Of a DNA stretch of 64,000 bases, positions 6,721 to 29,300 are shown one piece after another. The notes under the pieces are model-generated. The model was not told the origin of the DNA. It made no database searches and saw nothing but the letters and a program-made list of their open reading frames with translations. Position 1 is the stretch's first letter. Every line of letters starts with the position of its first letter. The stretch lies in assembly GCA_965655095.1 (NCBI GenBank), contig OZ296651.1, positions 117,614,001 to 117,678,000 on the forward strand. Direction: 5' to 3'. Origin of the DNA: Haplodiscus bocki (Eukaryota). The position numbers and the translations under genes were made by a program.

Positions 6721-9700
6721 CTAAAGTAATATGGGCTGATTACAGCAAATTGCCAATTTCAAGACATCTTCTTTATGAGGCCAATTTATGATTAAGTTTT
6801 CTGCTGTTGACAATGCATTCGGGAGGGAGATGTTCTTCTTCCTCAAGTTAAGCACTTTAGTAAGCCACCGTTTTTCAAAAAACCTTATTCTCTCCGTTGA
6901 GCTGCTTGGAAGAAAACCAGTCACGTAAGCACACAAAACCCAAGGTCTTCGAGAGGGATCCTGTGTGAATGATGCTCCCAAGCCAACATTATCTTCACGA
7001 ATTCGTCGATTGAGGCACATTGTTGAACCAATATATAACAAGTTGTTTTGCGGGACGCTCTGAATAAGGTAACAGTAGCCAACATTCTCCTGCGGTATAC
7101 TGATGGTTGATGGAAAAGGGTTTGTAGCACCATGGAAGCTCGTTGGGTCACGGGAAGAACACTTCTGGAGGATTTCGGAAGTCAGCTCCGACCACTGTGA
7201 CTTTTTACACAGCAAACTCAGAATGGCTCCTTCGTTCGACTGCTTCGATCCCACGAAAGTGATGTCCGCCAGTGATCGAACACGACTCATTACTACGTAT
7301 AGTTGCTCTGGCAACCAAAGTGAAAACTCTTGGGCTCCAACAATCTGCGTGGCAACTGTTGGGAGTGTTTCGCCCATAGTTTTATGAATAGTTGACGCCA
7401 CGTACAATTTGAGGGGGAATTGGATTCTGCGACAAATAGTTCTGTGGTTTAGACGAATGTTCACTCCAATTTCTTTTGCAAGGACAATACATCTCCAGGT
7501 ACTTCGAATTACAGAGAGTGGTGGAATGGATCGGCAACCAGCAGGTGCCAAGGCAACAGTTACTGTTCCGTTGTCAGCCAATGAGTCCAGGGAAACCAAA
7601 ACACAGAGTTTTCCTTGGAAAGCCATCACATTTGGCTTGTTAACGGTGAGTCGGAGAATTGCTCCAGGGAACAGAAACAACGATTGTGGCTCCAAACATT
7701 TCTTGTTTAAAAATTTTGTCGCCGCTCCAGAAGCTTCTATCCAGTTATCCGTACTTGACACACACATTTCATCTGTCGATGAACTTTCATGGAACTGGGA
7801 ACCACTGTCTTTCACTTGACAAATTTTCTTTAATGTCGCATATCTTTCTGCTGTGCGAGTAGCAAAAATTCTAATTGTATCATTTGGTACGTCATCCCAA
7901 CATTTTACGAAATTGCAATTTCGCTCAATCAAATTCCAAATTTGCTTTCCGATGGGAGGTGTTCTGGGAAAAGTTGACATGAGTGACAAAACTTTCTGAC
8001 CTGCTTCGTTTTGTATACGCACAAAGTGCTGGAGGAAACTAAAATGAAAAGTCGTTAAAGGGAATGAAGAACTGATCAGGCAACTTCCTTTTGGTGGAGG
8101 AAGTTGAAAAAAATCTCCTGTTGCAATGATTAGTTTCCCAGCAAATGGCACGTAGTTCGAGCAAATGATTTGGAAAACGTGGTCCGTGGCAGCCCAAAGT
8201 TCACTTGAGATCATCGAAATTTCTTCAACGAACAATACATCCAGATTCTGGAGAAACCGACTTTTGTCCGGTGATTTCTGCAAGCTGGACAAAGCTACTC
8301 GAGACAAAGAATTAACAGTTCCATTTTTTTCCACCGGGAAAGGAATGAGAGCGTTCAGATGCTTCCCACCTAAAGTAGCCGACCTTTCGGCCGCCAGCGA
8401 AGTTACCATGCAATTGAGTCCTTGACATATTGCATAACTCAGACCTCTCAGCATGATGAACGTTTTTCCCGTTCCTGGTGCCCCTGCAATGATTTGATGT
8501 CTGACGAAATTTTGTGTTCCTCCTCTGTACAAGTCCACCATTTCAACTAAATGTTTCAAAATTTCACTCTGTTCACAGTACGACTTCACTGTCTGGCCAG
8601 GATGTCTACCAAAGTCCGGTTTCCAAACAACGGGTGCAGTTAGGGAAGAGTCTATCATACTTTCTTCGCTTGGAAGTCCCATTTGACATGTGTGTAAGAA
8701 CTCTACCAATCTAATCTTGTTCATTGTCAAATCTACAGCAACATTTTCTTCGGAGTCGGCAGAGATAGTGCGATCCAAAACAGCTGGTACCCCGGATGCA
8801 AAATACAAATTGTTTTCTAACAGTGCCTCTCCTAGAACACTATTTGCCATCAACAAATACTTGTCAATGAGTTTACAGGATCCTGGCACAAAGCGGAGCT
8901 GTTGCAGTAGGTACCGGCGAGCTAGTTGAAGGACAACTGCTACAGTAATGTTGTTACGCTCGACCAGTTTGGCAGCTACAAAAGCTTCCCTGAAAGAGGA
9001 AACAGAGAGAATGTCCAGTTCGGTGTCAAACGAACCAAAAGTTAGCACAAAGTGCAAGAAGAACTTTGTTGGACTACTGGGCAGATTATTTGTGAAAACC
9101 ACTATGGCTTTTTGATCTGAGAAACAAACATTGTACGCTAGTAGTCTGGGGCAACTGTTGGTTCCTTGCAATTTGGGGACAATGTGTTTGCGGCACTCCT
9201 CTTTCAAAAATTCGTCCCTCGGATTATCACTTCTTGTTGCACAGAAATCAAGAAAATCAAAGATAGCGGGTGGGCGTATCTTGATGACGTATCCGAGGCA
9301 ATCAACCCAAAAGTCATTACACGATGCACGGCTCAACAAAATCTCATGACTACTTTTCCCTTTCGAAATGTTGTTTTTGAGTCTAACGAAGCAACTGAAA
9401 TAACTTTTCAAACTGCTCACAAAGAGAAGCTCCGGTGGTCTCAACCCAAAAATGGTCACTTTGTCAGGCGTAATCGAACTCGCTTCTACATCTGCCAACA
9501 ACAATTCTTGATTTTTTGTTAATTGTCGATGTTTTGGAAGCTTCAGGACGTTTTTCCGAATTCGAACAGCTCCGGCAAAAACAGCACTGAAGTTCATGGT
9601 GCTCGCAGTATATTTTTCTATCACTATTCCTGATCTGAATTCTTTGGGAACTGTTGGTACATGAATGAAATCTACGTTTGTGCAAACGTACGGCAACTGC

Positions 9701-12700
9701 AAAGCCCACCACAAGCATTCAGTAATGCTAACAATTCTTCCTGTTACAGATTTGCGTTTATCATCATCCGGACGTTTTTTGGTTACGCTGGATTGGACAC
9801 CGGCTATTTTTTCATTCACAATAGGTTTCGTTTGCACTTTCACTTCATTCTCACCAGCAGAGGCTAATATCTTTGTGAACGCCCGACCTTCCACACCGGC
9901 AGCATACTTTGCAACGTATCGTGAACACATTTCGTCGTCACAAATTTGGACGTTCGTACTGCTTTCGGTGAAAGCAAAGAAAGCTGCATTTGTTGGTGAC
10001 AAGTGTTCATTGTAAGCAGCAGGGTAGTGATGTTTTCCAGCTCTCAGTTCTTCTTCAACTTTGTCCGTTGAAGAGTTAGGGTCAATATAGGACAATTTCA
10101 TGCTTCTCAGCAGGTCCCAAGTTTCTTTGGAGTAATTAGGTTGTATTTCCTTGTAAGAGAACCCAACTGATGCAGGATATTTAGGTACCCTACACACTGG
10201 CTTTCCCGACCAATCAGTTTTCTTTTTACATCTATTTTTTCCCTTGCCACAATCGTGCCGTTGGTATTTTTGGAAAAGTTTTCCCAACCGGAACCGTTCT
10301 CTATCCGATAATGCTGGACAACATTTGCTCAAGGCGCCCATGAATGTTTCTTTCGAACAGCAGACTCGGGATTGAACTTCCGGACCAAACTTGTTTTCTC
10401 CGGTACACACTAGTGCATGGATGTGTGGAAAGGCCGAAGTTTCATCTTGCCACTCGTATCTCATCCATAAGTGAGAGATTGGTCCCAAAGGTTGCTCGGC
10501 CGAACACTTCAACCATTGCATTACATACAGTGAGGCGCGATGCCAACATCTAAGCATAGGCATTAATTCACTTTGTATTACAGATAGTCTCAGTTCTTTC
10601 GATGTAATATCGGGCGGGTAAAGTTTGTCAATAGCCTGGAAAATTTTCCGCAAGCCAGGGTGAGTAGATTGCCCACATGTGTATGTAACAAAATAAGTGG
10701 GGTTTTTATCTCTAATGAGTGCTGCTACTTCGCAGACATTTTTCCGGGATTCTGCACAATCGAACTTGAACGTTTCATCGGAAAAGTACTGCTAATTAGT
10801 AGGCGCACTGCCCAATTCTTGCCAGCCTCTGTTCAACACAATCCGAATATCAGTTTTACTCAATTGTAAGTTTAAAAGACAGTCAAAAACGAACTGAAGA
10901 TATGATGCGTGACTGGAGGTTAAAAGCGACCCATCAGTGATGCGAGTTCGCAGCATGTTCTCTAAACCTGCAAACCCCACTTGTTTGTTGTATTTTTCGG
11001 ATTGGAACAGGGATATTGGAATTGCTCCTTCAATGCTGCCATCGTAATTTTGGGACCAGAAAATAGAAGGAAAAAGCAGTCCTTCCGGTTGAAGCAAAGG
11101 CGTTGATGATGTCGAGGAAGCTGTAATGTTTTCCATGAAACGTTTCTCCTTAACGGTTAGGGTAATGGGATGAATTTTTTTCCTGTACAGTAAGTTGCAT
11201 CGAGAATTCAACAGTATGTGGAGAGGAATATTGTAATTTTCCTCACTGACAGCCTCTTGTACAGCAACAATGGCCCTTTCACCCGAACACACGTTCAATT
11301 TATTCATCACCATAGTTGCTACGTCGGAAGTCCCTTGTTAAAGGAACATCATGTTTGTCACAAATGAAAACTCCTTGACCGGTTAAATTACTGAGATAGT
11401 GCCACTTTACAGTCGACACTTTCTTAGAGTTAGTTCCTCGGTAGATTAAAAAACTCCAGTAGCCTCGTAGAATTTTTTCTATTAAGGTCTCAGGTGACTC
11501 CAACAAAGGTTCAGCAAACTTGTTAGCTTTCAGTGTACGCCAAAAAATGCAGAAGGGACCACCATGCCGAAGCAAAATTACAGCGTCTGTACCCCGAGAA
11601 CCACAACCACATCCCACAAGCTCAAATTGGACATCAAACACGATGATATTGCGAGGTGGGTTGACCTTGTTCCTCAAACTGTTCACATCAGTTGTTGTAG
11701 CAATCACGTGCTTCGTATCCATGGTTACGTCGCGCACAATTTTCTCAGTCAATTCTATTCTTTGGCTCAAATGCAGATGGCATAAGTCAGCACATAATGC
11801 ATGCAACACCACGCCACCCGCCTGAAAAAAGTTTTAAATCATGTTTGGGTTGTCATTGTTAGTCGCCGCGTTGTTCAATATACTGTCAATGTCAGCTTGA
11901 GCTTGTGAAATACGCTGCAACTTGCTTTCTTTTCCAAACCCAGCAAATGTATTACGCAACAGTGGCAACAAATTTGTTGCCAAAACGTGGTTAACGCCGG
12001 ATACCATGGATGAACATAAAATTGGAGAAATGCAGCATGCTGCTTGAAGAAACCAGAGTGTATCTCCAGTATCATTGATCAGAGGAGGAGGTGAGCAACC
12101 ATGTTCATTGTTTGGTTGAGCCAAAGCGTAGCACTGAAGAAATTTCACATTACTCAAAAGTTCTTGTTCGTTTTTGTCCATCACTTTCGTCAATCGAATG
12201 CAGGTGTCAAGATCTACGCCGACATGCTCCGGCATTTTTTCCTTTTTCGGCTGATATTGAGAGAGATCAGTGGCGACATCTTCAATCAACTTACCTTGAA
12301 CAACCCATTGTCTAATTAAAATTGATATATCTGACCTGAAAAACATGGCGGTTTCTTCAACCTGGAACAAACGATTGCTAGCGATGTTCCAACGCCGTTT
12401 ACGTCTCAACGAAACAGTACTCATACCACTATAAGACCCAACGCTCCGAAACAGTTGATAGATGTGGCTAGCATAATTAGCCTTTAAGCTACTCACACAC
12501 GACAATGAAGGTGATACAATGGCTAATCGTTCCTCAAACAAAGTTGGAATTCGTCCCAGCTCCGGTTGCCTGGGGGATGCAAGAACTGTAACGCACATCC
12601 CCTGTCATGCGCAGAACAAGTTTGCACAACCAAACCTTCTTTCTCATGTAACCGCAATGTGGCAGCCACTAGAAACGTCTTTAAGCACATCAAAGGGCGC

Positions 12701-14490
12701 AAAAAGTCGAGTCTAGCGCCTCTGAGTTTTTTGAATGCAGACGTTTGGAATGATGTGAAAGTTCTGTCTATTAAGTTTACAAAATGCTACGCTGGTATGT
12801 AGCCAGGATCTTCGATAAACGTCCAACAACCAAAAGGGCAACGTATGTTTGGATACGGTTCCAAGTCCAAAGCTTCAGCCATTTCTTCTTGTCTCCTTGT
12901 TGTCATTAGTTGCTCGAAACGTTTCAGTCTCTGTGTTCCATCAACAGTACAAGTGCCAAAAATACGCCGCCGTTTCAAAACACGCTGGATGCAGTTAGGG
13001 AAAGGGGTAATTACCCCTAGCCAATGTTGCCTTATTTCCAGGGGTAACAGCGAGCAAAGAGCGACTAAACGAGCTTCTGGCTTGGAAGTATCAGAAAGGA
13101 GCGTGAAAAAAACAGCTGGCCAAGCCATTTGCCAGTTAACCTTTGGTGCAGTACAATAGTTATAACAGAAACAACACAGATGTACATTTTCGTTTTTCAG
13201 CTTTTTGCCGAACTTTCTATTAACCAATCCAACTTTGCTGTAGGCCTTAATGTCGAACGGATAATATACCGTGGCTTGACGCATGCACTTGCAACAAATG
13301 TTGGCAGCATCGACAGTATCTGTCACAACCAATTTTGACTCAGTTTTAACGGTTGATTCTTCAGTCAATTCCGATAATGGAACAAAATTTTCAGTTATTT
13401 TCAGTAAAATCTCATCAGTCAACTCGCCTCCAGGCAATTTGTGAAACTGATCTTGTCGATGTTCCACAGCAGTTGGAGGACGGCCTCTACTTCGCGTTGT
13501 AGTATTTTCTCCATCACAAAGAGCTTCTGCCAAACAAAAAGATGTCACAGCTGTATTAGTTTCTCTATCGTCGATCAAATATGTGGCGACTGGATATTCT
13601 GAAGACCGTCTGCGCTTCTGCAACGGCTCAGTTTCATCAAGTGCTGCAAGCGCTGTCTGGATTACGTGGCAGTGAGTATTCATTGCTGAATTTGCGCATT
13701 GACTACTCGAACCAGCAACATTTTCTGATAGGAGTGATGAAGTGTGGTATGTTTCGGTCAAGCCACTAATTACCTCAAAGTGATCTCCAGTTCGCGTTTG
13801 TTGAATGAAAACGCCTTGTCTGTCATTTGAGCAGTCGCATTTGTAAACGAACCAATTTTTCAAAAGACTGTGGTATAAATAAACGTCTAATTTAAAAAAT
13901 TGACAGAAGGTATATATTTCAACACAAGTGCCAAAAACTCCATTTTCTGCCATTCGCGATGTCTGCAGGTAGTGGTTGACAGTTGGACTGGTGAGAAGTT
14001 TGTTCTGGTTGGGGAACTCAGCGGAATAGATAGAAGTTTGCAAACTGTTTTCCGGAAAGGTTACCGAGTCCATGTTACTCACAATATGTTTCCTCAAATC
14101 ATGACCACTTTCATGAGAGAAACCGATAGCTACGCCCAGGGCAGTGAAAGGACAATTACCATCACCCGTTATTTTAAGACTCTGCGAGGGTTGAACAGAA
14201 GTGAGGCGAATGTTAGTTTTATTCACAATTATGCCGCTTGTTGGGGAACAGGATAGTCCCATCGCTTTCAACGTTGATTCTATGTGCAGGGTATCAACAG
14301 ACGAGACCAGCAAATTATTATCAGCTATACTGTACAAAATTCCTAATGGTTCGCTGGTTGAAGAAACGTTGTCAGTGGTAATTGGACAGGAGTGATTACG
14401 TTCACTGAAGCGTCCACATTTTGCACAGCGACGTCTTTTCAAATCACTCTTGCCAGATGGCATTGCTCTTTCACAACAAACTTCGCTCAA
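6721..14490 (-). pseudogene. Disrupted OTU-Rep-helicase-GIY-YIG polyprotein, unit A
   Basis: Collinear with 55528-63597; in-frame stops at 12787, 11834 and 10792, frameshift near 12565, and a deletion near 11313 removing the CRC..CP..C..C.C..H region; the last 1310 aa (HUH motifs 2-3, helicase, GIY-YIG) are open. Confidence 0.9.
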
Positions 14491-14661
14491 AAGTTTATCA
14501 ATAACTCATCTTTAATAGTGAATACAATGTAAAGAGTAGGCGCCATTATATAACCAACGTACAAAATGACATCGTTTTGCTCGGCTTTCAAACTGTTCAA
14601 TTAACGGTAGCATCTAATTAATTCGAAAAAAGTAGTATCCAGAAAAAAATATGCAATGTGG

Positions 14662-14699
14662 GCCTTGGGTTTGCGCAGTTAACGGAGCAAAACCAAGGC
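14662..14699. promoter_or_regulatory. Conserved inverted repeat (13-bp arms, 12-nt spacer) upstream of polyprotein
   Basis: GCCTTGGGTTTGC-GCAGTTAACGGA-GCAAAACCAAGGC; equivalents in all four units; function inferred. Confidence 0.75.
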
Positions 14700-15329
14700 A
14701 TTCATCAGAGAATGAAAACAAACAGGTACTTACTTGGAGAGGCGGCGATGTAATGAGTGTTAATTGCGAATCTTGTGTTGTTTAAAAATCGTATTTAAGA
14801 AAATAATTTCCGTTCGCCCATACAAGTGGAACGCATCTCGATGTTACGGATTCCCGTAAATTAGTAGTGTACATGGCGAGTTCTGTCAAGTTTTTTTCCG
14901 CAATCCTCAGTAAAAGAGACTACAATGCACATCACAATGGTTCTTAGAAACCAACAATGTTCAGTTGGAAAAACCAACTGAGAACGCATAAATGTTGAGC
15001 GAATTCATACGGATTTCGAAAGGTGTTTGGGAAAACTGTGCACTTTAGCAGGCCTGCAAGTTAACCTAAAAAGAGTAATCATGAAAAATGAGGAGGCAAG
15101 AAATGGAGAAAAAAAAGTTTTCCGAGATCTTACTATTAATTCAGGCAAACTAAAATTATGCCCTATTCTTTATGACTGAAGTCTGACACGAGGTGAAAAT
15201 TGACTCCACAGAAAAATATCTTCACGTAGAAAACCCGAAATCCTAACAAATTAGAGAACTATGTTTAAAAGATTCTTACCATCTTGTTTTTCTCTTAGTA
15301 AAATCTTGGCTTCCAAAATCATTGCATGA

Positions 15330-17350
15330 TACGGAAGTTATGGAAGCTGAGAAAACCAGGTGATTCAGTTGAGAAAACAACTGCTTGGAGCAGTGGTTGA
15401 TCAATAAAAATTATATCAAAAATATCGACAGCGTTTATGTAAATGCTAAAAATGAAACATTCAAGTTGATTATTGTACAAAGCAGATGGGATTTTTGACA
15501 GTTGAAACAAGAAACAGCAAGAGGCCCTCTTTTTCCCCCGCGAAAAAACACGTTAACAATTTTACCTTGTCAAAGTTTCATTTGAACACCTGAAGAATGT
15601 AAACTTTCAGTATTTGCCGAAATTTATTGAAATTGTCGTCAAACAGAAGTCATTTTTTTATAAGTGCGTCACAAAGTTGATCCACAGTCCCATGCGTGGT
15701 ACTTCCACGCCACAGATAACACACAGTTTGCTATGAATGTTGAGGCAGTACTTTCCACCAAAAAGTATTTTCCACAAGCAAGGCTTTTCGCTAACATCTG
15801 CACAAAACGCGTCCGAATCCAAACAGTGTTGTCGGAAAAGGCAATTTTTTGCGGTCAAAACTATTGATAATATGATCTGAATTACGGTCATTCGATCTTG
15901 AATTTCGCTCCAAAAATGGTAAAAACGATTGAGTGGTTGATCACATGGAAGATGAAACGAAACTCACAGGCAACACAAATATGAAGATTTTTCAATAGCA
16001 TGAAAAACACGATGAAATGACGCACACACTGTCAAGTTTGTCAGAAACCTATAGGTAATGTAATTCTGCGAACATGCACGTTAACACTCCGTAGCTTTTA
16101 GGCGGTAGAAGGGTAAAAAATTAATGAAAACATTTTCTCCGTAGCAAAACCATTAGCTTGCTCAACTCTGAGGAGCCCGTTGACACTGTTCGTTCAATGC
16201 CAATCATCTTTGGAATCCATCGGTATAAATTTAAAGTTACGATTATGTTGTACACTTTTCAATTTTTCTTACGCCTCTCATGCTCCATCAGCCACATTAG
16301 AAATTCATGTAGGATGATAACAGCGGAGTTCCCCTTTGGAATTCGGAAATTGTGGAAGAATACCCAGTACTCAGTCAACGATTCTTACAAATATTATCCA
16401 GCATTCTTCGTTCAGGAAAACGTCAGTTAAATAAATTACCCGAAACAATTAGCTCAATTTATCGACAGAAGCCACACGATGTTGACCATAGTCAGTTGAG
16501 ACTTCAGTGAGCCACGATTCACAAGAGGAAAACTTCAAACGATCGAATGACATAAGAAAAGTGTCTACTTCAGAGGGTTCAAATGAGGGATGGGAAATTG
16601 GCAAAGTCTAGTTGACGCTAAAGAAATTATGATTTCATATCAAAACGCTTTATACAAAAACTAACTTCGGCAATAGTTGAGAAGAATAACACTTTGCTAT
16701 ATTTCGCACGACCGCGGATAATTTTTTTGACAACGAGAAGCATTATTTCACAGAAAAATCAAAACTTACTTTGAAAAAAGTTCGAAACTCCCATATGTAG
16801 GCTTCAGAACCAACCAAATATATTCTTCCGAAAAACTCAGGTAAAAGAATTCGTGAAACGCGACAATTTTTGAACGGTCTGTAGAACAATAAAATCTTCA
16901 AAATCGGAAACACCCAAAAACGACATCAAGAGTAAATAAGCATCGTTTCAACTGTACACATTACCTCCACATATTGTTGAAGTTGCTTACACTAACCACA
17001 TTTCATGTTGGCAAAAGCTCAAAAAGTAGATAATCGAAGTACTGCTTTCAAGAGTTCATAAATGAAAGGCACATATTTAATCGACTATCAGTACTGATCC
17101 GCCATGAAGTTGGCCTTTATCTTGTCATAATTTATGGTTCAAGATTATTTGATGAAGCCAACTGTCTCAATTCAATGATGATTATGACTAGTAACTTTTC
17201 TCATCTTTTTGTTTTCCAAAAGCATCCAACGTTCTATATATGTATTTGGACGACGCATGAATAATATTGTTACATAGTGGATGAAATGTCATGGCGCAGA
17301 ACTTCCTATTCATAAATTTTCTAGTACAGAACACCTAACTGTACATTTTC
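15330..17350 (+). pseudogene. Heavily decayed, deletion-riddled protein-primed PolB gene with EndoVII-like Zn motif (Polinton/Maverick-like relic)
   Basis: Motif remnants in canonical order: SSG* (GSGW-like, 15389), VCYEC..VFST..HL (15726), FDLE (15891), THCQVCQKP (16024), DTVRSMP/SSLESIGINL (16182), EFPF..KL..TQ (16326), S*D..FT..KLQ (16494), VDAK (16611), LKKVR..NSGKR..NNKIFK (16770-16905), TD (~17093). Confidence 0.6.
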
Positions 17351-17941
17351 ATGTTTTGAAAAAATCAACTCATGTGAAATAGCACACAACACTTATATTG
17401 TTCCTCTGAAGCACAAAGGAAGGCAACGAGAACCACGAAGAATTGCTTCAAGTACATGACTCATTGCGCAACCAATAGATTTTTTTGAAAAAAGTGGATT
17501 AACTAAATGGAACGGAACTGTCCTGAAAACGTCCATTGTTATGGAAGCCGGTAACGGGTAGGTCTCCGGAGATATATTTCAATTCAGCAGCTGATAAAGT
17601 GGAAAATTTGTTATTTTACCGTTCTGAGCTGACTTCCGGAAAAAATCGACCGGAAAGTACGTTTGCCATACTTCATTGCTGCTGTATGAACTTAAAAAAA
17701 CCAGGAAGATTACTATAGGTTTTGAGGAACATCCTCACATTTACGGTGTGAGACGACCTTTGTACGTATCAGTTGCATCCGCATTGTGCGAGTTAATCTT
17801 CAGTCTGGAGAAAAGTATCGTAAAAAAAGAACAAACAACAGTTTCCAATTAATTAAACAAAAAATTAGATTCCGAACCAATCACCAGAATTGATACCGGA
17901 AAAAAAATGAATGCAAAAAAAACCCGCCCTCTAGTAAATTG

Positions 17942-18023
17942 CACCGTTGCCTCCACTGGGTGGTCACGGGATTACGCCCCTCATAGGTCCTGGCGAGGCG
18001 GGGGAGGGGCCCCTTTGCCTCGC
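17942..18023. repeat. Unit junction motif J2 (A/B1) with GC-rich hairpin
   Basis: CACCGTTGCCTCCACTGGGTGGTCA - 26 nt - GCGAGGC-GGGGGAGGGGCCCCTTT-GCCTCGC (7-bp arms, 17993-18023). Confidence 0.9.
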
Positions 18024-19562
18024 GTTAATATATAAGAAATAACTCTATGCAAATACGGTATAGGAAAATAACGATCTCAGCTCCCACCCATACGATTTTG
18101 ATCAAACTTTGCATGCGGGCATAACTTTCAATTCTAAGAACAATGGTGCAAGTTAGATCATTCTAGCAAAAATGGTTGGGGAATTATGACGGGATGATTC
18201 TGTTTTTTGGCCTCATTTTGCAGTTTTTTACCGACAGCCCTGCAAGGAACCACATGCACTTGGCCGAAACTTTTCGTGTGAAGCAGAATAACTAAGGGCT
18301 ACACACATGCAAAAAATTTTCTACCAACTCGTCATAGGTGTTGAGATATGACGGATCAAAGTTGGAAAAAAATGCCGAAAATCGACCATTTCGTCATAGC
18401 TCCCACATTGAAGTGCATAGTTTGCCCTCTGGAGTGGCTCCAGTATGAAATCGACTCCATATCTTCAAAGGCAATTTTCCGAAGATGAAAAAGTTTCGGC
18501 CACTTTGCCGAAAAAAATGACGGTTATGACGAATTTTTTTGGAAAAAAAAACAAAAATCAGAAAAAAATCAATTTTTGCTGTAGAATTTGAATATAACAC
18601 TTAAACAGGCGTATGGTGAAACGTCGGCAGGAATTTTTGCCCGCAATTCTCGGAGAGCAACTGTTCCTTTAACAAACAACTTCAAGTTTGATGAGTTTCT
18701 GGGAAGGAAAACTAAAATTTTTGTCCGAACGAATACTTTCAAAATTTGACCAGCGAAAGTGTTTTAACTTTCTCAAAAAGTTTCGCATCAATGTTGTCAA
18801 TTTGTAGGCAGTAGGTTCCCAGCTATTACTTTGTGAAAACAACCCGAATGAACCAAATGAACCTGTATAGACTTCAGAAAAAAATTCCCTAAAATTTCGT
18901 ATGAAAGTTTGATCCCATTCTTCTGTTAGCGAAAAATACAACACTGTATCAAACGTCAAGCAACGAACTGAGAGCGTGCACTTCGACCGATAGAAGAGCA
19001 AGCCAGCGTTTCAAAGTTCAAAACGTTCGGTCATGAACGGATAGTAATGTTTAACATAACAAGAAAGAAGTTAATTGCATAACATAAAAAGTTCACAACT
19101 TCTACACGAACCAATAAACCACACTCAAAAGCCACACGAATTAGCACAATGTTCTAAGCTACTGAAAAACGTAGGTTTACAGAGACAAGTCGTCGGCAGT
19201 TGCAAACTAATTTCCATTGTTCAACAACAACTAATTTGTAATTTGACATTAGTGTTTACAGTTCCACAAAAACCAACAATTAACCTTTGGGTACTGATAA
19301 GTACTGGAAAGTTAAACTTTATCATTAACAAGAAAATTGAAGCATAGGTTTCAAGATTGAAAAGGAGGAGAACAAATTGTGGTATGAAAGAACGAGGACA
19401 ACTTTATCAGTTGACTTTTTTTCCGAAACTTGTTAATTTGTGCATGTTTTTTTCAGCAACCACCTTGCGGTCGATTGCGAAAGGAGAGATTGGTTTTGAA
19501 AACCAGCAAGCAGTTCATGCGGTGGAGAAAGAACGGTCATCTGAGGAGTAAGTCTAGATCAG

Positions 19563-20573
19563 CTATCGTACGTTGTTCGGATTGTTAGGAGCACCGACGT
19601 TAGTATTCGCATGTTGCAAAGCTGGGGGCTCATTGCCAATATTGGCGTTGCATGGCACAATGTTGTATTTCAAGTTAAAAGGCACTTCAACGGCAGGCGT
19701 AATTTTGCAAATGCGGACACGTTGTACGTTTTGTGCAAGATTTTCGTCTGTGGATCCACTTTTGTAAAATCCACATACCTGCCAACCACCATTCTCATTT
19801 ACAAATTGGGACACCTGGTTAACAGCAATCCGCAGTTGTTGCGAATCGATTGATGCATATGAACTTCTAATAATTGCTTCGCTGCAAAACAGTTTTGTCA
19901 GGTTAAGACTTTGTATCATTTCTCCCGTGAGGGAATCTTCGTCTTCATTTTCGATGTCACGACTGACAATTCGGGCGCACATTACCCAAGCTGAAACAGG
20001 AGATTTCTGTATACAGGGGCATACAGAGTCAATTCGTTTTTCTCGTCTGTCACACATGAAGCCTGAGCAAGTTGGAGCTACAGCACCTGCTTGTAAGAAG
20101 GTGAGGGGTCTGTTTGGCAAGCAAAAGTGAAACATTGCTGTCGTTGATGGGTGGAGATCTATGGGAATTGGCAACAATGGAATATTGTTAACCACGACTT
20201 CCAAAGGAAGAAAGACATGAAAAATTGGATTACTGCGGTCATTGCCGAGACAAGAGTTCGAGAACACAGGTTCTTTTACGTCCACAATTGACCCTACTGT
20301 TAACAGAGTGTCCCCGAACAAAAAATAGCTTTTCTGTGCAGACTCCGCAATCACAGCAAAGCATTCTTTTGAATTGATCTCGCCTAGTATGACTAATCGA
20401 TCATAGCTGGTATCGAGGGCACCTCTCTTGTTTTTGATATTTTGCGGTCTAAACAACTGCAAAGGTTTGTCGTATTTCTTAATTACTAGAACGATACCTC
20501 TGACGAATGTATTTTCGCTTCGACGCAAAAAATTTGGTGCTGTTACTTGGGAGGTGTTCACTTGAGTTGTCAT
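19563..20573 (-). CDS. Element-borne uncharacterised protein (336 aa), Cys motif, possible OB-fold
   Basis: Open ORF conserved in all units; TTTCAG immediately before ACT-ATG suggests a possible upstream exon. Confidence 0.8.
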   Translation of the reverse strand: MTTQVNTSQVTAPNFLRRSENTFVRGIVLVIKKYDKPLQLFRPQNIKNKRGALDTSYDRLVILGEINSKECFAVIAESAQKSYFLFGDTLLTVGSIVDVKEPVFSNSCLGNDRSNPIFHVFLPLEVVVNNIPLLPIPIDLHPSTTAMFHFCLPNRPLTFLQAGAVAPTCSGFMCDRREKRIDSVCPCIQKSPVSAWVMCARIVSRDIENEDEDSLTGEMIQSLNLTKLFCSEAIIRSSYASIDSQQLRIAVNQVSQFVNENGGWQVCGFYKSGSTDENLAQNVQRVRICKITPAVEVPFNLKYNIVPCNANIGNEPPALQHANTNVGAPNNPNNVR

Positions 20574-22017
20574 AGTCTGAAATCAAACGTGGTTGAAGCT
20601 GCCTGAGAATTGAACAATTGGAACATTCAAAACCATGCTTTTTCCTTTTTTAAAGATTCTGTGAACGCATTTTCCTATAAGGTTCAATGAAGTCAACAGG
20701 CAAGTAATTTTGGTTTCAAGCATTTAATCCAGTGAATTAGCGCTATTGCTTCAAGTAAAGCAACCTGTTTTTCAAAAAAGCATGACAAGTTTCTCAATTA
20801 TTCACATTTCTCAAATCTTCTTTATCATTAAGTTTATTTCATCGAAATGTTATGTTACATTTACAGTTATCTTACTGTTCAACGCATCACGCTTTATCGA
20901 TCAGTAACACTCAAGGCAAAAGAAAAAAAATGGTGAGCAATGCATTCAAATACATCGTTATTACATCGGTTTTTTTCCTGTCTACAAAACTTGTAGAAAG
21001 TTAAGGATTATAAATTATATTTTCATTGCAGATGTTCCACAACTGAAGTTTAATACGAGCTCAAAGCTGCACAATGTTTGCTATAACGTTTTTTGCGAAT
21101 ATAAGAACAAACATTTCAAAAGAAAACTTTATTCAAAATAATATGAACAATCCTTGTAACAGTATGGCCGAGGTTAGTTGATCACTTTCGAAATTTTAAA
21201 CTACCAAAAGTTTTTAACAAACAATGTAACTATGGAGTACACTATTTCAGCGAAATCATGAAGGAATTGTGACGACTCATAGCGGACGGCGACCATTAAA
21301 AAAATGTTCCAATGACAACGAAGCATCAAAAATTCAAAGAGGTACAGATCACCATGCGGTTGAACTCCTTACAACGTCATCACAAACCAACTTTAAATTG
21401 AATGAGGCATGAAGACAAAGTTTAAAATAATAAATATGTTGTAATGTACGCCAAAATGCAAGGTGTGTGGAACAAAAAAAATTCAAAACCTCAAAGAAGT
21501 AGAGGCCACCATGCGGTCGAGCTTTTTTACAATTTTATCACTGACAAATTACAAATCGAAGAGGACACGAAAACAAAATTAAAACACTGTCCTAGCGGCG
21601 TCAATTGGCCAAGATTATTGGAAACCAAAAAAGCACCTTTGTTTGTTTTTAATGGTACCACCAAAAAAAGTTTCAAAATTGTGTCATCATGAAAAAACTA
21701 CCAAGAGTATTCGAAACATAGGTGCAACGACCAAGATTGTAATTCCATTTTCCAGAAATGTCCAAATGAAGCCTACAACAACACAGGGCCGGATCTTCAC
21801 CACTTCCAGTGGACGTAGCGGTTTTTGCGATGGGAGAGTCTCCTGATTGAGTATCCTAAACGACATTGGTGTTAGAATGGAAGTTTATGGAAAAAACGTA
21901 AACCTTCTATAGGTAAATTCCAAAGAGTTTAAAGCTAGAAACATTCAATTGCTGGAAAGTTGATATCAACCGCAAATTACTGGAATCAATACTGTTTTTC
22001 AACATCTTAATGTACTG

Positions 22018-22770
22018 CTAGACACATTTGTTACCTAAAGTCCGTCTTTTTATAATCCACAGGATGTTCGTCACGCCGTGCTGAGACAGATGCACTCCGT
22101 CTTTAAGATTTCTTTCAGATGACATCTTAGATGACACGGAAACGTAAGTGTAGTGTCCAATGGATGTTCGCAGCATTCGGTTTATTTCTTTCACTGCAAG
22201 GAAGCACGGTCGGCTTCGCATTACTAAGCCCAGGCAGTATACTTTGTCGCATTTTCTCTCGGCAATTCTCACAAGGTTCAAGATATCAAGGAACACCTAA
22301 TAATAAAACAACAAAAGCAAATGAAGTACTGTTGAGATATTAAAAACACAAAGTTACGGTTCAATTATAGTTTGCAAGTAGCACCAGTTAAAGTACCAGT
22401 AGAAAGACTTACTATTGAAAACAACGTGTTCCTAGATTTTTACTAAACGTACTTCAATAAAGGGTTTAACAATACACAAAAACGTTCCAAATTTTACTAG
22501 CGTCTAATTTGATTTTGCAAACAGTAACCCCATGAACCATCACTTAAGCTTTACCTGTTCTGGACTTTCAGCTGGACGCCGGCCCCAATTGGAAAGGCCA
22601 TTCCCTCCAATGAAACTTGTAATGGATTGGAAGCGGCGCCGCAAATTTTCCAGGAAACTCGTTACACGTCGGTCCGCCGCTCTGGCGCCAGGAAAACTTT
22701 TAACTGCCAAATTTTCAAGCACACCTTCCAGTTGTACGCCCAGAGAGTCGGTTATGATCAAATGAGCCAT
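22018..22770 (-). CDS. SGNH/GDSL hydrolase, two exons (22770-22555 and 22296-22018, 164 aa)
   Basis: ITDSLG, FPGA, FIGGNG, DGVHLS; intron CAG|GTAAAG...TTAG|GTG (22554-22297). Confidence 0.85.
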
Positions 22771-23106
22771 AATGATCTGGAAGCACTGTGAAAAACGTCG
22801 GTTTCTGCAGCTTCAGGTATCATCCCCGAATACGGGGATACAGTAACAAGAGTGCTTCAATCAACAATGTCAAAATTCGTCATTTAACGTATGATTATAT
22901 TTTTTCCCGAAAAAACTTGAAAGTTAGCTGATTTCTATTGTCCAAAATTAACGGCGCTTTTTAAAATGGACTCTTTCTAGTGCTTCCAAAATCAAAGTCC
23001 ATCAAATCAGGTTCAGTGAAAGTCAATCCCATCAAACTAATGAATTAAACAGACACAGACAAGTGATTAGCAACAAATCATGTCAACTGCAAAATAGATA
23101 ATGCAA

Positions 23107-23248
23107 CACTATGCAGTCGAAGCATTATCTTTTCCAGCAAAAAGGTTGATGTTGCTGCACGTGCTACTTGGTTCATCACTCTGCAGCCGATGCGGTTGCA
23201 GCATAACATAAAGAGAAATTCACCATTGCATCACTATGCAGTCGATGC
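23107..23248. repeat. Three dispersed copies of CACTnTGCAGyCGAwGC just past the polyprotein stop
   Basis: Copies at 23107, 23177 and 23232; also in B2 (~40147-40288) and C (55372, 55430). Confidence 0.7.
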
Positions 23249-23346
23249 GTATGGCTGTCAAGGCAAGGAAGTTTGTGTGCAAGTAAAACAATTATCTCAA
23301 ACTAATCCATAAGTTTTTGGGCAGCTTTCTCCTAAAGTACGACTTT

Positions 23347-26300
23347 TCAAGACACAGTTGATGACCTGCAGCACACTACTAGTTTCAAATCATCTTCTTT
23401 GTATAGCCAATTTTTTGCGACAATTTCCCCCAAATTGATAGCTGTGGGAAGTGACACATTTTTCTTTTTTGCGTTGACGTAGTGTGTTGCCGCATTCAGC
23501 CACTCCTTCTCGAATGCTCGGATTCTCTCTGAAGCATTAATCGAATTGAAACCAGTAACATAAGCACAAACCATCCAGGGCAAACGATTTTGTACCTTGG
23601 TGAAGGAGGAACCCAGTCCTGCATTGTGCTCTCGCAAACAACGCACTAACGACATAGTGGAGCCAATGTACAGAAGGTGCTGCTGTGGTTCACTTTGGAG
23701 CAAGTAACAGAAGCCCACATTTTGAACGGGTAGTTCTCTCATTGAAGGGGGAAAAGGAGATGCTCTTGCATGATCAATTGTAGGGTCACCAGCGGAACTT
23801 TTAGTCAAAATTTCATTCGTGAGTTCAGCCCATTGCGAATTTTTGCAGACTAAATCCAAGACTGCTCGTTTGTTAGATTCCTTCGATCCAACAAAAGTCA
23901 CCTGATTCAGACTTCTTACTCGACTCATTACAACATAGATTTGTTCGGGAAGCCACAAAGCGAAGTCTTTCGATCCAACTATTTGGGTTGCGACCATCGG
24001 AAGCGTTTCACCCATTGTCTTATGAATGGTTGACGCAACAAATAATTTTAGTGGAAACTGGATTCGTCTGCAAACCGTTTTGTGGTTTAATCGGTAGGTA
24101 ACACCAGTTTCTTTGCCGATAACAACACAACGCCATTTGTTTTTGATCACAACAAGCGGTGGAATACTTCGGCAACCAGCTGGTGCTAGAGCAATTGTCA
24201 CAGAGCCATTCTCAATTGTATCCAAAGAAAGCAGAACACAGAGTTGACCCTGATACGCGGATATAGATGGCATGTTCACTGTTAGTCGTAAAATGGCTCC
24301 GGGGTACAGAAACAACGACTGGGGTTCAAGACACTTTTTGTTGAGAAATTTTGATGTACTTGGCGACGCCTCGGTCCAGTTGTCAGTGCTTGAAACGCAC
24401 ATTTCATCAATTGCCGCATTTTCATAATAATTGGGTACCGCTGTTTTTAACATCGATTATTTTGTCTTCAGTTGCTTTACGTTCTGCTTGTCGAGTGGCA
24501 AAAATTCGAATTCTATCATTCGGCACGTCTTTCCATGAATGGACAAAATTGCAACCTTTACCGATAATTTCCCAGATACGCCTCGCATTGCCGTCAGTTT
24601 TTGGAGTCGCTGACAACAAAGACAACAGTTCTTGGCCATTTTTGTTTTGCATGCGAACGAAATTTTCCAGTTTGAGAAAAGTGAACGTTGTGAGAGGAAA
24701 AGAAGAACTCATCAAACAAGATCCTGATGGTGGAGGAAGTTGGAAGAAATCTCCGGTTGCAATAACAAGTTTCCCACCGAATGGAACATAATTTGCTGTG
24801 ATAACCTGAAGCACATAATCCGTGGCAGCCCAAAGTTCGCTAGAAATCATTGACAATTCCTCCACGAAAAGAACGTGTAGATTTTGCAGAAAGCGGCACT
24901 TAATAGGAGATCGTTGTAGGTTGGACAGGGCTGTTCTCGAGAGCGATTCTGCAGAAGCGTGTTTTTCCACTGGAAATGGGATGAGGGCATTCAGATGTTT
25001 TCCAGCCAAAGCGGCAGATCTTTCAGCAGCCAAAGATGTCACTACACAGTTGAGACCTTGGCATAAAGCATATGCAAGCGATTTTAGCACAACGAAAGTT
25101 TTCCCACTTCCTGGAGGTCCAAAGACAATTTGATGCCTGATGAAACTGCAAAGTCCTTCTTTATAAATGTCGATGGAACTCAACAGTTTGTCTACTACAC
25201 TCTTCTGTTCCGTATAAGAGTTTCGACATTGATCCGGGCTTTTCTGAATGACTGGTTTCCAAGGTAAAGGGACGGTGATGGTTGCATCTAGCATCGCCTG
25301 CTCAGTAGGTAATTGTTTCTGACAAGTGTGAAGAAAAGCTACCATTTTGCATTTTTCCATACTGATTTGCACTGCTAGTGATTCTTCGTATTCTTCAATG
25401 ACACTTCTGTCCAGCACAGGCGGTAGCGCAGCAGCGAAATAAAGGCTGTTTACTAACAGAGCCTCTGAAAGAACACTGTGAGCCATTAAAAGGTATTTGT
25501 CAATTAGTTTCGAGGACCCAGGTACAAAACGCAGCTGTTTCAGCAAATAATTCCGTGTTAAATTTTGCACGGTCTTGGCTTTTATGTTACAGCTTGGAAT
25601 AATTTTAGCTGTTGTGAAAGCTTCTTTGAAAGACTGCACGTTCAGAATGTCCATCTCTGTGTCAAATTCTCCATTAGTCAAGAGCACATGTAGTAGAAAT
25701 TTAGTTGGGTTATTCGGCAAAACGTTACTGAAAACAACCACGGCATCTTCTTCGGACAACTGCTTCCAGTGAGCAACAAATTGTGATGCTTTTTTCGTCA
25801 CAAGCAACGGAACAATGTGTATTCTCATTTCGCGTTTCAGAATCCCATCCCGTCCATCGGTACCATTTGCACGACAGAAATTTACGAAAGCGTCCACTGA
25901 ACAAGGGCGTAGTTTAACCAAATACCCCAATGCATCAACCCAACAACTTCTGCGGAAGCTTCTCTTCAAGAACACTTCATGATTGCTGATGGATTTTTTT
26001 GTTTGCGGTTTACAACGAACAAACCAACTGTAGTAATTTTTTAACTTCGAGACAAACAAAAGTTCAGGTGGGCGGAGTCCAAAAACTGTTACTTTGTCTG
26101 GCGAAATAGAGCTGTTTTCAACATCTGCAAGAAGAAAACTTTGTGTTCTTGTGAACTGCCGGTGCTTTGGAAGTTGTAAAACGTGTTTCCGAACTCGGAT
26201 TCCTTCCATAAACGTGGCGCCCAACTTAATTTTATTGCTAAAGCGTTTTTCAGTGATAATTCCAGATCGATTTTCTTTGGGAACAGTTGGCACGTGAACA

Positions 26301-29300
26301 AAATCGACATTTGTGCAGACATAAGGAAGCTGTAAGGACCACCAGAGACACTCTGTTATGCTGACCACACGACCAGTTACCGATTTTTGTTTTTCATCGC
26401 CTGTCATTTTCTTTTGCGAAGCCTGTACCCCAGCTATTTTTTCATGTGCGATTGGTTCTGTTAAAACTTTGACACTATTTTCTCATTCACCAGCAACAAT
26501 TTTGGCAACTGCTCGAGATTCAATGCCGGCTGCATATTTTGCAACGTAGCGGGGGGCCATGTAGTCGTCACATATTTGAACATTGGTGCTGGATTGTGTC
26601 AAAGCAAAAAGAGCAGCGTTCGTTGGTGAATAATGTTCGTTAGAAACAGTGGGATAATGATGTTTTCCGGCCGTTAAAGGATCTTTCACTTTTGGGAATA
26701 GCGAGTTTTCATCTATGTCTGCCAGTTCCATTTCTCGCAGAAGTCCCATTGTTTCGCAGGAAAAGTTCACAGGAATTTCCTTGAAAGAAAAACAATTCGA
26801 AGGAGGATATTTAGGTACACGACAAATTGGTTTGTCCAGCCTGTCTGTCTTCTTATGGCAACGTTTACGGCCTTTCGAACAGTTATGGGTTTGATACTTT
26901 TGGTAAAGTTCACCCAGTTGGAAACGTTCGACTGCGTTCAATTCGGGGCAACTGACTTCTAAGCCACCCAAAAACGTTTGTTTTGAACAGCAAACTCGAG
27001 ATCGTACATCATCACTAAATTTATCTTCTGGTGTGCACAATATAGCATGCAAGTGTGGAAAGCCAGCTGTATCTTCTTGCCATTCGTACCTCATCCAAAT
27101 ATGAGACACAGGACCAAGTGGTTCTTCTGGTGAATTTTTCACCCATTCCATTACATATTGAGAGGCGCGGTACCAAGACCTGAGCATGGGCATGAGCTCA
27201 GCTTGAATTGCTGCTGCAAGTACTTCCTTTGGAGTGGTTTCTGCGGGATACATTTCATGCAGTGCTTCAAAGATTTTGCGAATCCCCGGGTGGGTCGATT
27301 GACTACAAGTGTATGTCACAAAGTAGGTTGGATTTTTGTCTCTAATCAAAGCCGCAAGTTCGCAGACATTTTTTCGACTTTCGGCACAATCAAACTTGAA
27401 AGTTTGAGTCGAAAGAAAAGAGCAATTATGAGGAACCGAATTAACTTCTTGCCATCCTCGATTTAGTATTATCCTAATGTCACTTTTATGAAGCTGCATG
27501 TTCAAGAGGCAATCAAACACATACTGCAAATAAGTAGGATTGCAAGATGTCAAAAGAGAGCCGTCCTTGATTCGAGTTCGAAGCATGTCATCCAAACCGG
27601 CGAAACCCAGCTGTTTGTTGTACTTGGATGAATTGTATAAAGCCTTTGGTATTGCTCCTGGAAAACTGCCGCTGCTAGCTTGACACCAAAAAATCGATGG
27701 AAAAAGAAGAGCTTCGGGTTGAATGAGCGGTAATGCAGACGTCGAAACAGCTGAAATATTTTCCAGGAAACGTTTTTCTTTCAGAGAAAGGCTGATTGGA
27801 TTCCCGTTACGTCGATAAAGAAGATTGCATTGTGAGTTTAAAAGAATATGGAGCGGTAGTTTGAAGGCATCTTCTTTTCGTTCAAGATCCACGGAAATCA
27901 GTTTTTCATCTGAGTTGGTTTTTAATGTAGCCATTATTCTCAAGTTGTCATCTTCGAATTCTTCGTCATTTGTTTCCGGATGAACAATATAACTGACGGA
28001 CGAACTGTTGCTTGATGCAATGTCAAGCGTTTCTGCTGCCGCATCTGGTTGAATTGGTTCATTTGCAGGCATGCTGTTGGGCTCAATAAAATCCCGTGAC
28101 GAAGATGATTCCGATACCAGAGAAGGGGAATTAGTTTTATTTAACTTCTCCAACGGTACTGAATCAATTAAAATACGTCTGTGTTGCTGCTGTAGACCTT
28201 CATTGAAGTGACGCTTGCAAACGCAAGAGTAGCACTGCAAATGCGGGCAGCGCAAAAACGATGCACGATTACATCTACATTGGAAACCACTGTTTCTGAA
28301 ATCTCTTGTTAAAGGAATTGTGTGATGTGCACAAATAAAAATACCCTGACCTGTCAAAGTGCTCAGAAATTTCCACTTCAAATCAATCAATTCAACATTT
28401 CTTGACTTTTGATAAATTGCAATTGTCCAATAACCCCGAATGAAAGTTTCCAGGGCATCAGTCGGAGAGCCTTCTGTTTTTGTGGCAATTTTTTTACTTT
28501 TCTCAATGAGCCAAAACCCCTGAAACCTCCCTCCATGTCTAACCAACCACCTCGGTTCTCCCTTGCTGCTTCCATCCTTCGTTCCAACTGCAATCAATTC
28601 GAATTCATTGTCGGAAATAATCAGGGTTAACGGTGGTTTCACCTTGTTCCGCAAATTTTTTGGGGAACCTGTCGTAAAAATGGCATGAGTCATGTTGTAC
28701 GAAACTTGCTCTGTTGTGGCTGAACCGATATTCTTCCGTTTGTTTAAGGGAACGTGTTGAATGGTGTCACAAATTTCTGAAAGAAACCTTGCTCCTACAA
28801 AACAACAACAGTCGGTTGTTCCCTCTGTTTTGTCATCAGTGTTAGTTTGTTCTATGACAGCTGAGACTGCTTGTTCGGATTTTCTAACAAGCCATAAAAC
28901 TTTTGCTGTATTCATTCTTGCGGTGCCAAGCAACACTTTCCTGAGTAAAGTGAACAAAGGCCTAAGTGTCACACTGTATTTTGATGAGTTCACTAAGGAT
29001 CGACAAAGTATTGGGGAAACACAAACTGCAGCCTGCACAATCCACGATACTATGCTTACTCTATTTTCCAGAGGAGGTGGAGAGCAGCCGTAATCATCAT
29101 TCCCATGGACGAGAGTGTAACAACTCAACGACTCAACATTGTTGAGATATTCTTTTTCATTCATTTCCACTATTTTCGTGAGGTCCAGGCATGTTTGTAA
29201 GTCTATTGAAGTGGCCTGTGACAAACAACTGTTGACTTTCTTTTTGTCCGGTACATAATCCAGCATTCCCGAAGCTACGTCATCAAGGATTTTACCCTGT

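What the first reader, a model, noticed from the sequence alone, without database searches (positions are those of the whole stretch)
17942..18023. Bipartite junction motif with a mappable switch point and no canonical Helitron termini
Seen: a 25-nt box and a GC-rich box are separated by a fixed 26-27-nt variable segment containing an invariant GCCCC. Diagnostic bases track the left unit up to GGTCA+1 (CCGTTGCC..GGTCAC after A-type, CCGTCGCC..GGTCAG after B-type). Sequence beyond that tracks the right unit, placing the joint at ~17967-17971. The GC box forms a 7-bp-arm hairpin around the palindrome AGGGGCCCCT in B. No 5'-TC/CTRR-3' pair or TSD is present at the joint. Inference: this is the Rep nick/ligation site (origin-like), with a new terminal signature.
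Basis: partly seen in the sequence, partly recalled or inferred. Interest (0 to 1): 0.75.

Follow-up and report, generated by a model that had tools for sequence, protein, structure and literature searches.

The report
Joined ends of unusual Helitron elements
This short motif is the seam where giant rolling-circle transposons of several divergent families sit head to tail, and its near-perfect conservation suggests that these elements insert at each other's ends rather than at ordinary genome sites.

Summary
The motif is real. It occurs four times (1347, 17942, 34981, 52020) and marks every joint of a head-to-tail array of ~17-kb Helitron-like units from at least three families. Each unit encodes an OTU–Y2-HUH Rep–PIF1–SLX1-like GIY-YIG protein and a probable OB-fold protein.

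The 25-nt box (24/25) and the 20-nt GC box (20/20) stay conserved between families whose RepHel proteins are only about 54–63% identical. There is no CTRR|TC pair, no TSD and no significant terminal inverted repeat.

- The joint is firmly bracketed only to 17948–17971. The narrow call (17967–17971) rests on one base (posterior about 0.5).
- The right side does not simply follow the right unit: B1 and B2 differ at 20 of 144 bases there, against 0.57% elsewhere.
- The perfect hairpin exists in only 2 of 4 joints.

Best reading: these are joined Rep-processed termini, and new elements insert precisely at existing ends, building mixed arrays. Nick strand and base are not shown. The GIY-YIG-bearing clade is large (223 clusters at E≤1e-30) and I found no description of it. 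New variant of Helitron; interest 0.6.

The parts
17942..17966 (.). 25-nt box at joint J1 (A|B1); 24 of 25 bases identical across all four joints; holds a 4-bp CCAC/GTGG stem
17948..17971 (.). Interval that must contain the A|B1 joint; the best single positions are after 17967 or 17968
17967..17992 (.). Variable 26-nt spacer with invariant G+2, TT+6/+7, GCCCC+10..14 and A+17; different at every joint
17993..18012 (.). Invariant 20-nt GC box
18017..18023 (+). Right arm of the GC-box hairpin (perfect in B; 5 of 7 pairs with tandem G.A in A and C)
17968..18111 (.). Terminal 144-nt segment of B1, 14% diverged from B2 while the unit bodies are 0.57% diverged
18085..18551 (.). Subterminal non-coding block still 65% identical between A and B families; carries five TATGACG sites in both orientations (17 of the window's 19 copies lie in these blocks). 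Coordinates approximate, transferred from the A-B2 match
1347..1427 (.). Joint J0 (Z|A): same two boxes, 26-nt spacer
34981..35062 (.). Joint J2 (B1|B2)
52020..52102 (.). Joint J3 (B2|C), 27-nt spacer
1..1372 (-). Tail of unit Z, 86% identical to the corresponding end of A
1373..17967 (-). Unit A (16.6 kb); RepHel at 6721-14490 broken by 3 stops and 2 frame changes; small ORF 2688-3734
17968..35006 (-). Unit B1 (17.04 kb); RepHel at 23347-31417 with one stop and one frameshift; small ORF 19563-20573
35007..52045 (-). Unit B2 (17.04 kb); RepHel at 40387-48456 with one stop; small ORF 36602-37612
52046..64000 (-). Unit C (runs off the window); first ~3.1 kb B-like (about 85-92%), then a different family
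55528..63597 (-). Intact 2689-aa transposase: OTU (93-191), HUH Rep (H1451/H1453, Y1620/Y1624), PIF1 (2066-2225), SLX1-like GIY-YIG (2564-2638)
53668..54678 (-). 336-aa accessory ORF; its N-terminal ~100 aa is probably an OB fold of RPA/Teb1 type (low-confidence model)

Best explanation
The motif is the joined right and left termini of a Helitron-like rolling-circle element from a GIY-YIG-bearing clade. It is the site that the RepHel protein recognises, nicks on one strand and re-ligates. SHOWN: it marks every unit boundary; the units encode Y2-HUH Rep plus PIF1; the two boxes are nearly invariant across families whose other non-coding DNA barely aligns; there is no TSD. INFERRED: (1) The Rep nicks at or just right of the 25-nt box, most likely after 17967 or 17968; the helicase peels one strand; the ends are joined into a circle, as in Helraiser. 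(2) Because all families keep the same boxes, an incoming element uses a resident element's end or joint as its target, so unrelated families stack head to tail with no host DNA between them. (3) The long conserved end right of the joint (GC-box hairpin, TATGACG cluster) is the exchangeable end; swaps there gave the B1 145-nt and C 3.1-kb mosaics. (4) The SLX1-like GIY-YIG domain trims the flap or branched intermediate, and the OB-fold protein coats the displaced strand. Confidence that the motif is the joined termini processed by Rep is about 0.85. Confidence in the whole account, including self-targeting, is the number given.
For: Four of four unit boundaries carry the motif and it occurs nowhere else, even allowing 8 mismatches in the 25-nt box or 6 in the GC box. 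Three of the four joints link different units: Z|A (86% nt), A|B1 (RepHel 40-63% aa by segment; about 54% overall) and B2|C (68% aa). At the A/B2 right non-coding ends, the only matches are the 42-nt terminal block (88%) and one 47-nt block just upstream of the ORF. HUH histidines are invariant in 15 of 15 aligned sequences and both tyrosines are at least 90% conserved. GIY-YIG is present in 16 of 19 long homologues scanned (19 chosen from the 150 listed), and its best solved relatives are SLX1 (E 2e-7). B2 against C differs at 0.23/0.16/0.50 by codon position, so the families diverged under constraint. Indirect support: divergent families share contig lengths elsewhere (8 of 53 distinct lengths among five small-ORF clusters at 49-88% identity; 5 of 47 among four RepHel clusters). 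Precedent: Helraiser makes and cleaves precise head-to-tail joints (PMC4778049 and PMC5876387, passages).
Against: Only four joints were seen, with no array edge and no empty site, so neither the exact end nor a target preference is shown. The narrow joint rests on one base, and 0.47 of the posterior lies inside the invariant box. Two other mosaic switches lie away from the motif (about +145; 21074/55176, with no box-like sequence there), showing that ordinary recombination also shapes the array. No conserved strong hairpin: the junction folds no better than shuffles. Shared contig length does not show adjacency.
Confidence: 0.55

Rival explanations
1. The motif is the element's joined ends, but mixed arrays come from host recombination. 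Rolling-circle concatemers of single families are shuffled by crossover or gene conversion, and the apparent switch point is just a crossover in the most identical stretch (the invariant 18 nt).
For: B1 carries a 144-nt end allele 14% diverged from B2, and C carries a 3.1-kb B-like end. The posterior for a joint inside the invariant box is 0.47. Tandem Helitron arrays from rolling-circle replication are known (PMC5876387 and PMC5148889, passages).
Against: A and B share only 42 nt at 88% on one side and 65% identity on the other, a poor substrate for homologous recombination. Three of four joints link different units and all switch within the same 23 nt. The +1 base favours a joint outside the invariant stretch (likelihood ratio about 9).
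Confidence: 0.2
2. These are degenerate Helitron2/HLE2-reverse termini with the ORF reversed. On the + strand the left unit ends with a 3' inverted repeat (CACCGTYGCCTC) followed by a 4-bp hairpin, the right unit starts at or near the GC box (5' repeat GAGGCGGGGGAG folded into a 5' hairpin), and the spacer is a short remnant. The signature would then be an eroded known one.
For: The order of elements matches the Helitron2 and DINE-1 descriptions (PMC3627910 and PMC4067079, passages), and reversed ORFs are known (PMC3627910, PMC5148889, PMC13085455). The two 12-mers pair 8-9 of 12 plus 1-2 G.T pairs on the + strand. The GC-box hairpin is 1.0-2.0 kcal/mol more stable on + at all 4 joints. OTU is common in HLE2.
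Against: The inverted repeat is no better than chance (177-242 of 300 shuffles reach it), whereas HINE subTIRs are described as perfect or one mismatch (PMC7492417, passages). The putative 5' repeat is about 27 nt from the joint, not 0-4. The invariant TT is not at the joint (posterior 0.013 for +5 or beyond). DUF6570 and AP endonuclease are absent in 19 of 19 homologues.
Confidence: 0.15
3. The motif, or part of it, is a fixed target rather than an element end: a multicopy host site or a chromosome end to which elements are added one after another, as with telomere-targeted elements, possibly cut by the GIY-YIG domain.
For: RepHel decay is ordered along the array (A 5 breaks, B1 2, B2 1, C 0; chance of a monotonic order 2 in 24), as expected for growth from one end. 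The terminal 145 nt is uncoupled from the body. Telomere-targeted Helitrons exist in Paramecium (PMC13085455, sections 14 and 18 part 1).
Against: No Rfam family at gathering score in the window and only chance-level hits near the joint; no tRNA; no telomere-like repeat. Spacers differ at every joint, so they are not duplicated targets. The closest solved GIY-YIG relatives are structure-specific SLX1 enzymes.
Confidence: 0.1

Closest known systems
HLE2 (Helitron2, Helentron, HLE2-reverse/FoHeli3-5), including the GIY-YIG-carrying family HelenSM92 of Sphagnum
   Same: RepHel with an N-terminal OTU; no TC/CTRR ends; no TSD; two conserved terminal blocks; a hairpin involving one block. HelenSM92 shows that a 16-19-kb HLE2 can carry GIY-YIG (PMC11417382, passage and supplementary legend).
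   Different: No significant terminal inverted repeat; no T|T at the joint; no DUF6570 or AP endonuclease in 19 homologues. GIY-YIG is a fixed C-terminal part of a broad clade. Full-length units of several families are stacked in one array. Whether HelenSM92 belongs to this clade was not testable (its sequence and Figure S8 were not visible).
HLE1 (canonical Helitron, Helraiser)
   Same: Y2-HUH Rep fused to PIF1; precise head-to-tail joints; a probable RPA-like gene downstream of RepHel, the side HELIANO reports for HLE1.
   Different: No CTRR|TC pair; no conserved hairpin 10-12 nt from the joint; the clade's Rep profile does not detect Helraiser at E up to 10, and only the helicase matches (E 0.002).
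Paramecium telomeric Helitrons (third clade)
   Same: Very long RepHel ORF, clade outside the usual profiles, one orientation in arrays, apparent target specificity (PMC13085455).
   Different: Those end in CCAA and are flanked by telomeric repeats; GIY does not occur in that paper's main text. Here units abut directly and no telomeric repeat was found.
Replitrons and IS91
   Same: HUH transposases, target-specific and oriented insertion, generally no TSD (PMC10288648, passages).
   Different: They lack a fused helicase; Replitrons are Y1 with short terminal direct repeats. Here the enzyme is Y2 plus PIF1.

Membership tests
Helitron-like elements (superfamily) | Y2-HUH Rep domain | tested here: met
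   H1451/H1453 invariant and Y1620/Y1624 at least 90% conserved in 15 sequences; Helitron_like_N E 4e-6, 27.6 bits, just under the 28.9 cut-off; nearest atlas clusters carry Helitron_like_N, score 0.94
Helitron-like elements (superfamily) | PIF1 helicase fused C-terminal to Rep | tested here: met
   PF05970 E 2e-12; solved PIF1 structures E 3e-12
Helitron-like elements (superfamily) | No target-site duplication | tested here: met
   Spacers flanking complete units are 13, 20 and 19 of 25 identical; tested only inside the array
Helitron-like elements (superfamily) | Rolling-circle transposition via a circular intermediate | not testable with these tools
   Needs junction PCR or an in-vitro assay
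HLE1 | 5'-TC and CTRR-3' termini joined at a tandem junction | tested here: not met
   No CTRR|TC on either strand at 4 of 4 joints; CTGG and TC lie 4 nt apart in the box
HLE1 | Hairpin 10-12 nt from the 3' end | tested here: not met
   The GC-box hairpin ends about 25 nt from the likely joint and is perfect in only 2 of 4; the 25-nt box folds weakly and inconsistently
HLE1 | Insertion between A and T | not testable with these tools
   No array edge or empty site in the window; the only related locus fetched is 2.5 kb and lacks ends
HLE2 | Asymmetric terminal inverted repeats of 8-17 bp | tested here: not met
   Best candidate pairs 8-9 of 12; 177-242 of 300 shuffles score as high
HLE2 | 5' hairpin involving the 5' repeat and a 3' hairpin after the 3' repeat | tested here: inconclusive
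   7-bp hairpin in B, 5 of 7 in A and C; 4-bp stem in the 25-nt box; junction z-scores not significant
HLE2 | T|T insertion site or T-run at the ends | tested here: inconclusive
   An invariant TT lies at +6/+7, but a joint at +5 or beyond has posterior 0.013; true flanks not seen
HLE2 | DUF6570 marker domain | tested here: not met
   0 of 7 window proteins and 0 of 19 homologues; divergence could hide it, and some atlas look-alike clusters carry it in 28-76% of members
HLE2 | Phylogenetic placement in the HLE2 clade | not testable with these tools
   No HLE1/HLE2 reference proteins were recognisable among the hits listed
Helentron | C-terminal apurinic endonuclease | tested here: not met
   GIY-YIG occupies that position; no Exo_endo_phos in 26 proteins scanned
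Replitron | Y1 Rep without helicase, terminal direct repeats | tested here: not met
   Y2 plus PIF1

The most novel reading that the evidence does not exclude
A broad, undescribed Helitron clade, separate from HLE1 and HLE2, with an SLX1-like GIY-YIG nuclease fused to RepHel. Its members share one origin-like terminal sequence across families and use it as a sequence-specific landing pad, so that they insert into one another's ends and build long mixed head-to-tail arrays, possibly growing from one end. This would be a self-targeting, site-specific rolling-circle transposon carrying about 17 kb.
Probability: 0.3. Interest if true: 0.82.

Novelty: new variant of a known kind. Interest (0 to 1): 0.6.

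Why it matters
Known Helitrons insert at dinucleotides (A|T, T|T) or, in Paramecium, telomeric repeats. A terminal sequence held nearly invariant across families only 54-68% identical in protein, and found at every joint of a mixed array, points to long-sequence target recognition and self-insertion as a safe harbour. It gives a short defined substrate (about 80 nt) and an intact 2689-aa enzyme with which to test nick position, strand and target choice, and the role of a flap/junction nuclease in Helitron integration, a step that the Helraiser passages I read leave open. Ends of this kind would be missed by TC/CTRR- or TIR-based annotation.

Tried and rejected
Host RNA gene as target: no Rfam match at gathering score in 64 kb; two chance-level hits (E 2.7 and 4.9) near the joint; no tRNA.

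Telomeric context: no short tandem arrays of note; no vertebrate-type telomeric dimer (motif recalled).

More junctions: genome contigs gave 1 locus from 77 candidates (L001, 2.5 kb, 53% identity, inside a bacterial MAG record, probably stray eukaryotic DNA), with no ends. Phages and plasmids gave no match. Metagenome and viral contigs were closed, so termini of related elements stayed unchecked.

Terminal inverted repeat: not above shuffles. T|T joint at +6/+7: disfavoured. Long hairpin centred in the spacer: predicted only at J3.

Pair counting on the alignment used a mis-registered structure and was discarded; four sequences could not show covariation anyway.

Small ORF: no Pfam hit, no atlas hit, no PDB profile hit. 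The second (pLDDT 37.5) gave no Foldseek hit at E≤0.001 and OB-fold matches at Z 6.6-7.2, which the tool warns is a middling score.

Clade placement: the last protein search returned only this clade, so no tree against HLE1/HLE2 was built.

Literature: ten searches listed no paper whose title or abstract start describes a GIY-YIG Helitron clade or mixed-family self-targeted arrays. The library lacks most subscription papers and Repbase, and several searches listed only part of their hits (e.g. 20 of 32, 25 of 105).

Full report
SETTING. The window is a head-to-tail array of about 17-kb units with all long ORFs on the minus strand: the tail of Z (1-1372), A (1373-17967), B1 (17968-35006), B2 (35007-52045) and the start of C (52046 to beyond the window). 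C holds an intact 2689-aa protein with OTU, Helitron-like Rep, PIF1 and GIY-YIG domains. Its GIY-YIG is closest to SLX1 among solved structures. The HUH histidines and two tyrosines are conserved in a 15-sequence alignment. Each unit also has a 336-348-aa ORF with 15 database relatives. A low-confidence model of it (pLDDT 37.5) matches RPA/Teb1/MCM10 OB folds over its first ~100 residues at Z 6.6-7.2, which is a lead only. Against a near-B intact protein, C is 68% identical and A 40-63% by segment. A has 5 breaks, B1 2, B2 1 and C none.

THE OBSERVATION. Both boxes occur exactly four times, once per unit boundary, and never in shuffles; no weaker copies exist elsewhere. The spacer is 26, 26, 26 and 27 nt. 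With +1 = 17967, bases at -42, -37, -33, -18 and +1 follow the left unit; J0 and J1 first differ at +3, and J2 and J3 at +5 although B1 and B2 are identical for the 903 nt before the joint. There is no CTRR|TC pair and no TSD.

CORRECTIONS. First, the bracket. Positions -17..0 are invariant and carry no information. A scan trained on left-flank and right-flank site patterns (uniform prior) gives 0.43 for a joint after +1/+2, 0.09 after +3/+4, 0.47 spread over 19 positions in the box and 0.013 for +5 or beyond. The firm interval is 17948-17971 and the best single positions are after 17967 or 17968. Second, the right side is not a clean copy of the right unit: B1 and B2 differ at 20 of 144 bases in +2..+145 against 96 of 16,895 elsewhere (p 6e-21). 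Each carries its own derived changes relative to A and C, so these are two old end alleles on nearly identical bodies. C is likewise B-like for about 3.1 kb and then switches family at 55176, where no box is present. Third, the 7-bp hairpin is perfect only in B. A and C pair 5 of 7 arms with a tandem G.A/A.G mismatch. That such a mismatch can be stable in DNA is recalled, not tested. The hairpin is 1.0-2.0 kcal/mol better on the + strand at all four joints, a weak hint that + is the working strand. Whole-junction folding is not better than shuffles.

WHAT THE CONSERVATION SAYS. Between A and B, the non-coding DNA left of the joint matches only in the last 42 nt (88%) and one 47-nt block just upstream of the ORF; the region between the two ORFs does not match at all. 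On the right, the GC box and a 470-nt block at 65% are shared. That block holds 17 of the window's 19 TATGACG sites, in both orientations, which may be protein-binding sites (inference). Such conservation across families marks functional termini. Three of four joints link different units at the same motif with no host DNA between. Elsewhere, divergent families share contig lengths (8 of 53 and 5 of 47 distinct lengths, from at most 15 listed members per cluster). This is compatible with mixed arrays but does not show adjacency.

MECHANISM. Helraiser makes precise RTS-LTS joints and cleaves them precisely on one strand (PMC4778049, PMC5876387; passages). By that established chemistry, the joint of a RepHel-encoding tandem array is where the Rep cut and joined. 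I infer that the Rep nicks at or just right of the 25-nt box, that PIF1 displaces the strand, and that the shared boxes let an incoming element use a resident end as its target. This explains mixed families at one motif, which rolling-circle concatemers alone cannot. The SLX1-like domain keeps its catalytic-type residues in most long homologues (Y2567 91, Y2579 83, R2589 75 and E2632 76 of 106 partly redundant proteins; residue roles recalled) and most likely trims flaps or branches during integration. The rivals are recombinational shuffling at the invariant stretch (0.2), eroded Helitron2-type ends with a reversed ORF (0.15), and a fixed host or chromosome-end target (0.1). The ordered decay A>B1>B2>C fits the last but has a 2-in-24 chance level.

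COMPARISON. It works like a Helitron and meets the superfamily tests that could be run. It fails the HLE1 terminal tests. It fails or is inconclusive for HLE2: the candidate inverted repeat is reached by 177-242 of 300 shuffles, and DUF6570, which HELIANO calls an HLE2 marker (section 23), is missing in 19 of 19 homologues. The clade is large: 1105 clusters at 50% identity with E≤0.001 and 223 with E≤1e-30, with GIY-YIG in 16 of 19 long members scanned. Its Rep profile does not detect Helraiser. The only GIY-YIG Helitron I found in print is HelenSM92, an HLE2 with TIRs and T|T sites. Its figure and sequence were not visible and may bear on novelty. Tandem and self-inserted Helitrons are known (PMC5148889, PMC5876387), but the passages I read did not describe mixed-family full-length arrays with a shared long joint motif.

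PAPERS SEEN. PMC11417382: abstract, passages, sections 4, 23 and 24, and a supplement search (legend only). PMC13085455: abstract, section 14, section 18 part 1, passages. PMC5148889: passages and section 16. Passages only: PMC3627910, PMC4067079, PMC6431247, PMC4778049, PMC5876387, PMC7492417, PMC10288648, PMC13565253 and 10.64898/2026.09.17.752431. All others: search listings only.

VERDICT. Observation partly confirmed; interpretation partly supported. A real and unusual terminal junction of a little-described GIY-YIG Helitron clade, probably self-targeting, with the nick site bracketed but not mapped. New variant of a known kind; interest 0.6.

Noticed in passing
window 6721-14490, 23347-31417, 40387-48456, 55528-63597: RepHel decay is ordered along the array (5, 2, 1, 0 breaks), hinting at growth from the right-hand end; chance 2 in 24.
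   Followed up: partly
window 21074 / 55176: Unit C switches abruptly from B-like sequence (about 92%) to a different family about 500 nt upstream of the small ORF, with no junction box at the switch.
   Followed up: partly
window 18185-18531 and the same offsets after the other joints: Cluster of TATGACG sites in both orientations; 17 of the 19 window copies lie 216-563 nt right of a joint. Possibly binding sites.
   Followed up: partly
window 18071-18116: A third conserved block (CGATC...CCATACGATTT...TCAAACTTT) is shared by all four units. It reminds me of the core block of non-autonomous Helentrons (recalled, untested).
   Followed up: no
window 17956-17965: CTGG (a CTRR) and TC lie 4 nt apart inside the invariant box; a GTGG|TC joint would be one base from the canonical HLE1 joint and is not excluded (per-position posterior 0.025).
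   Followed up: partly
window 36602-37612: The B2 small ORF begins with TTG where B1 and C have ATG.
   Followed up: no
L001:714-2339: A 53%-identical Rep region on a 2.5-kb contig in a Poribacteria MAG record, probably stray eukaryotic DNA.
   Followed up: no
protein P0118: One homologue has an OTU-like match C-terminal to the GIY-YIG rather than at the N-terminus.
   Followed up: no
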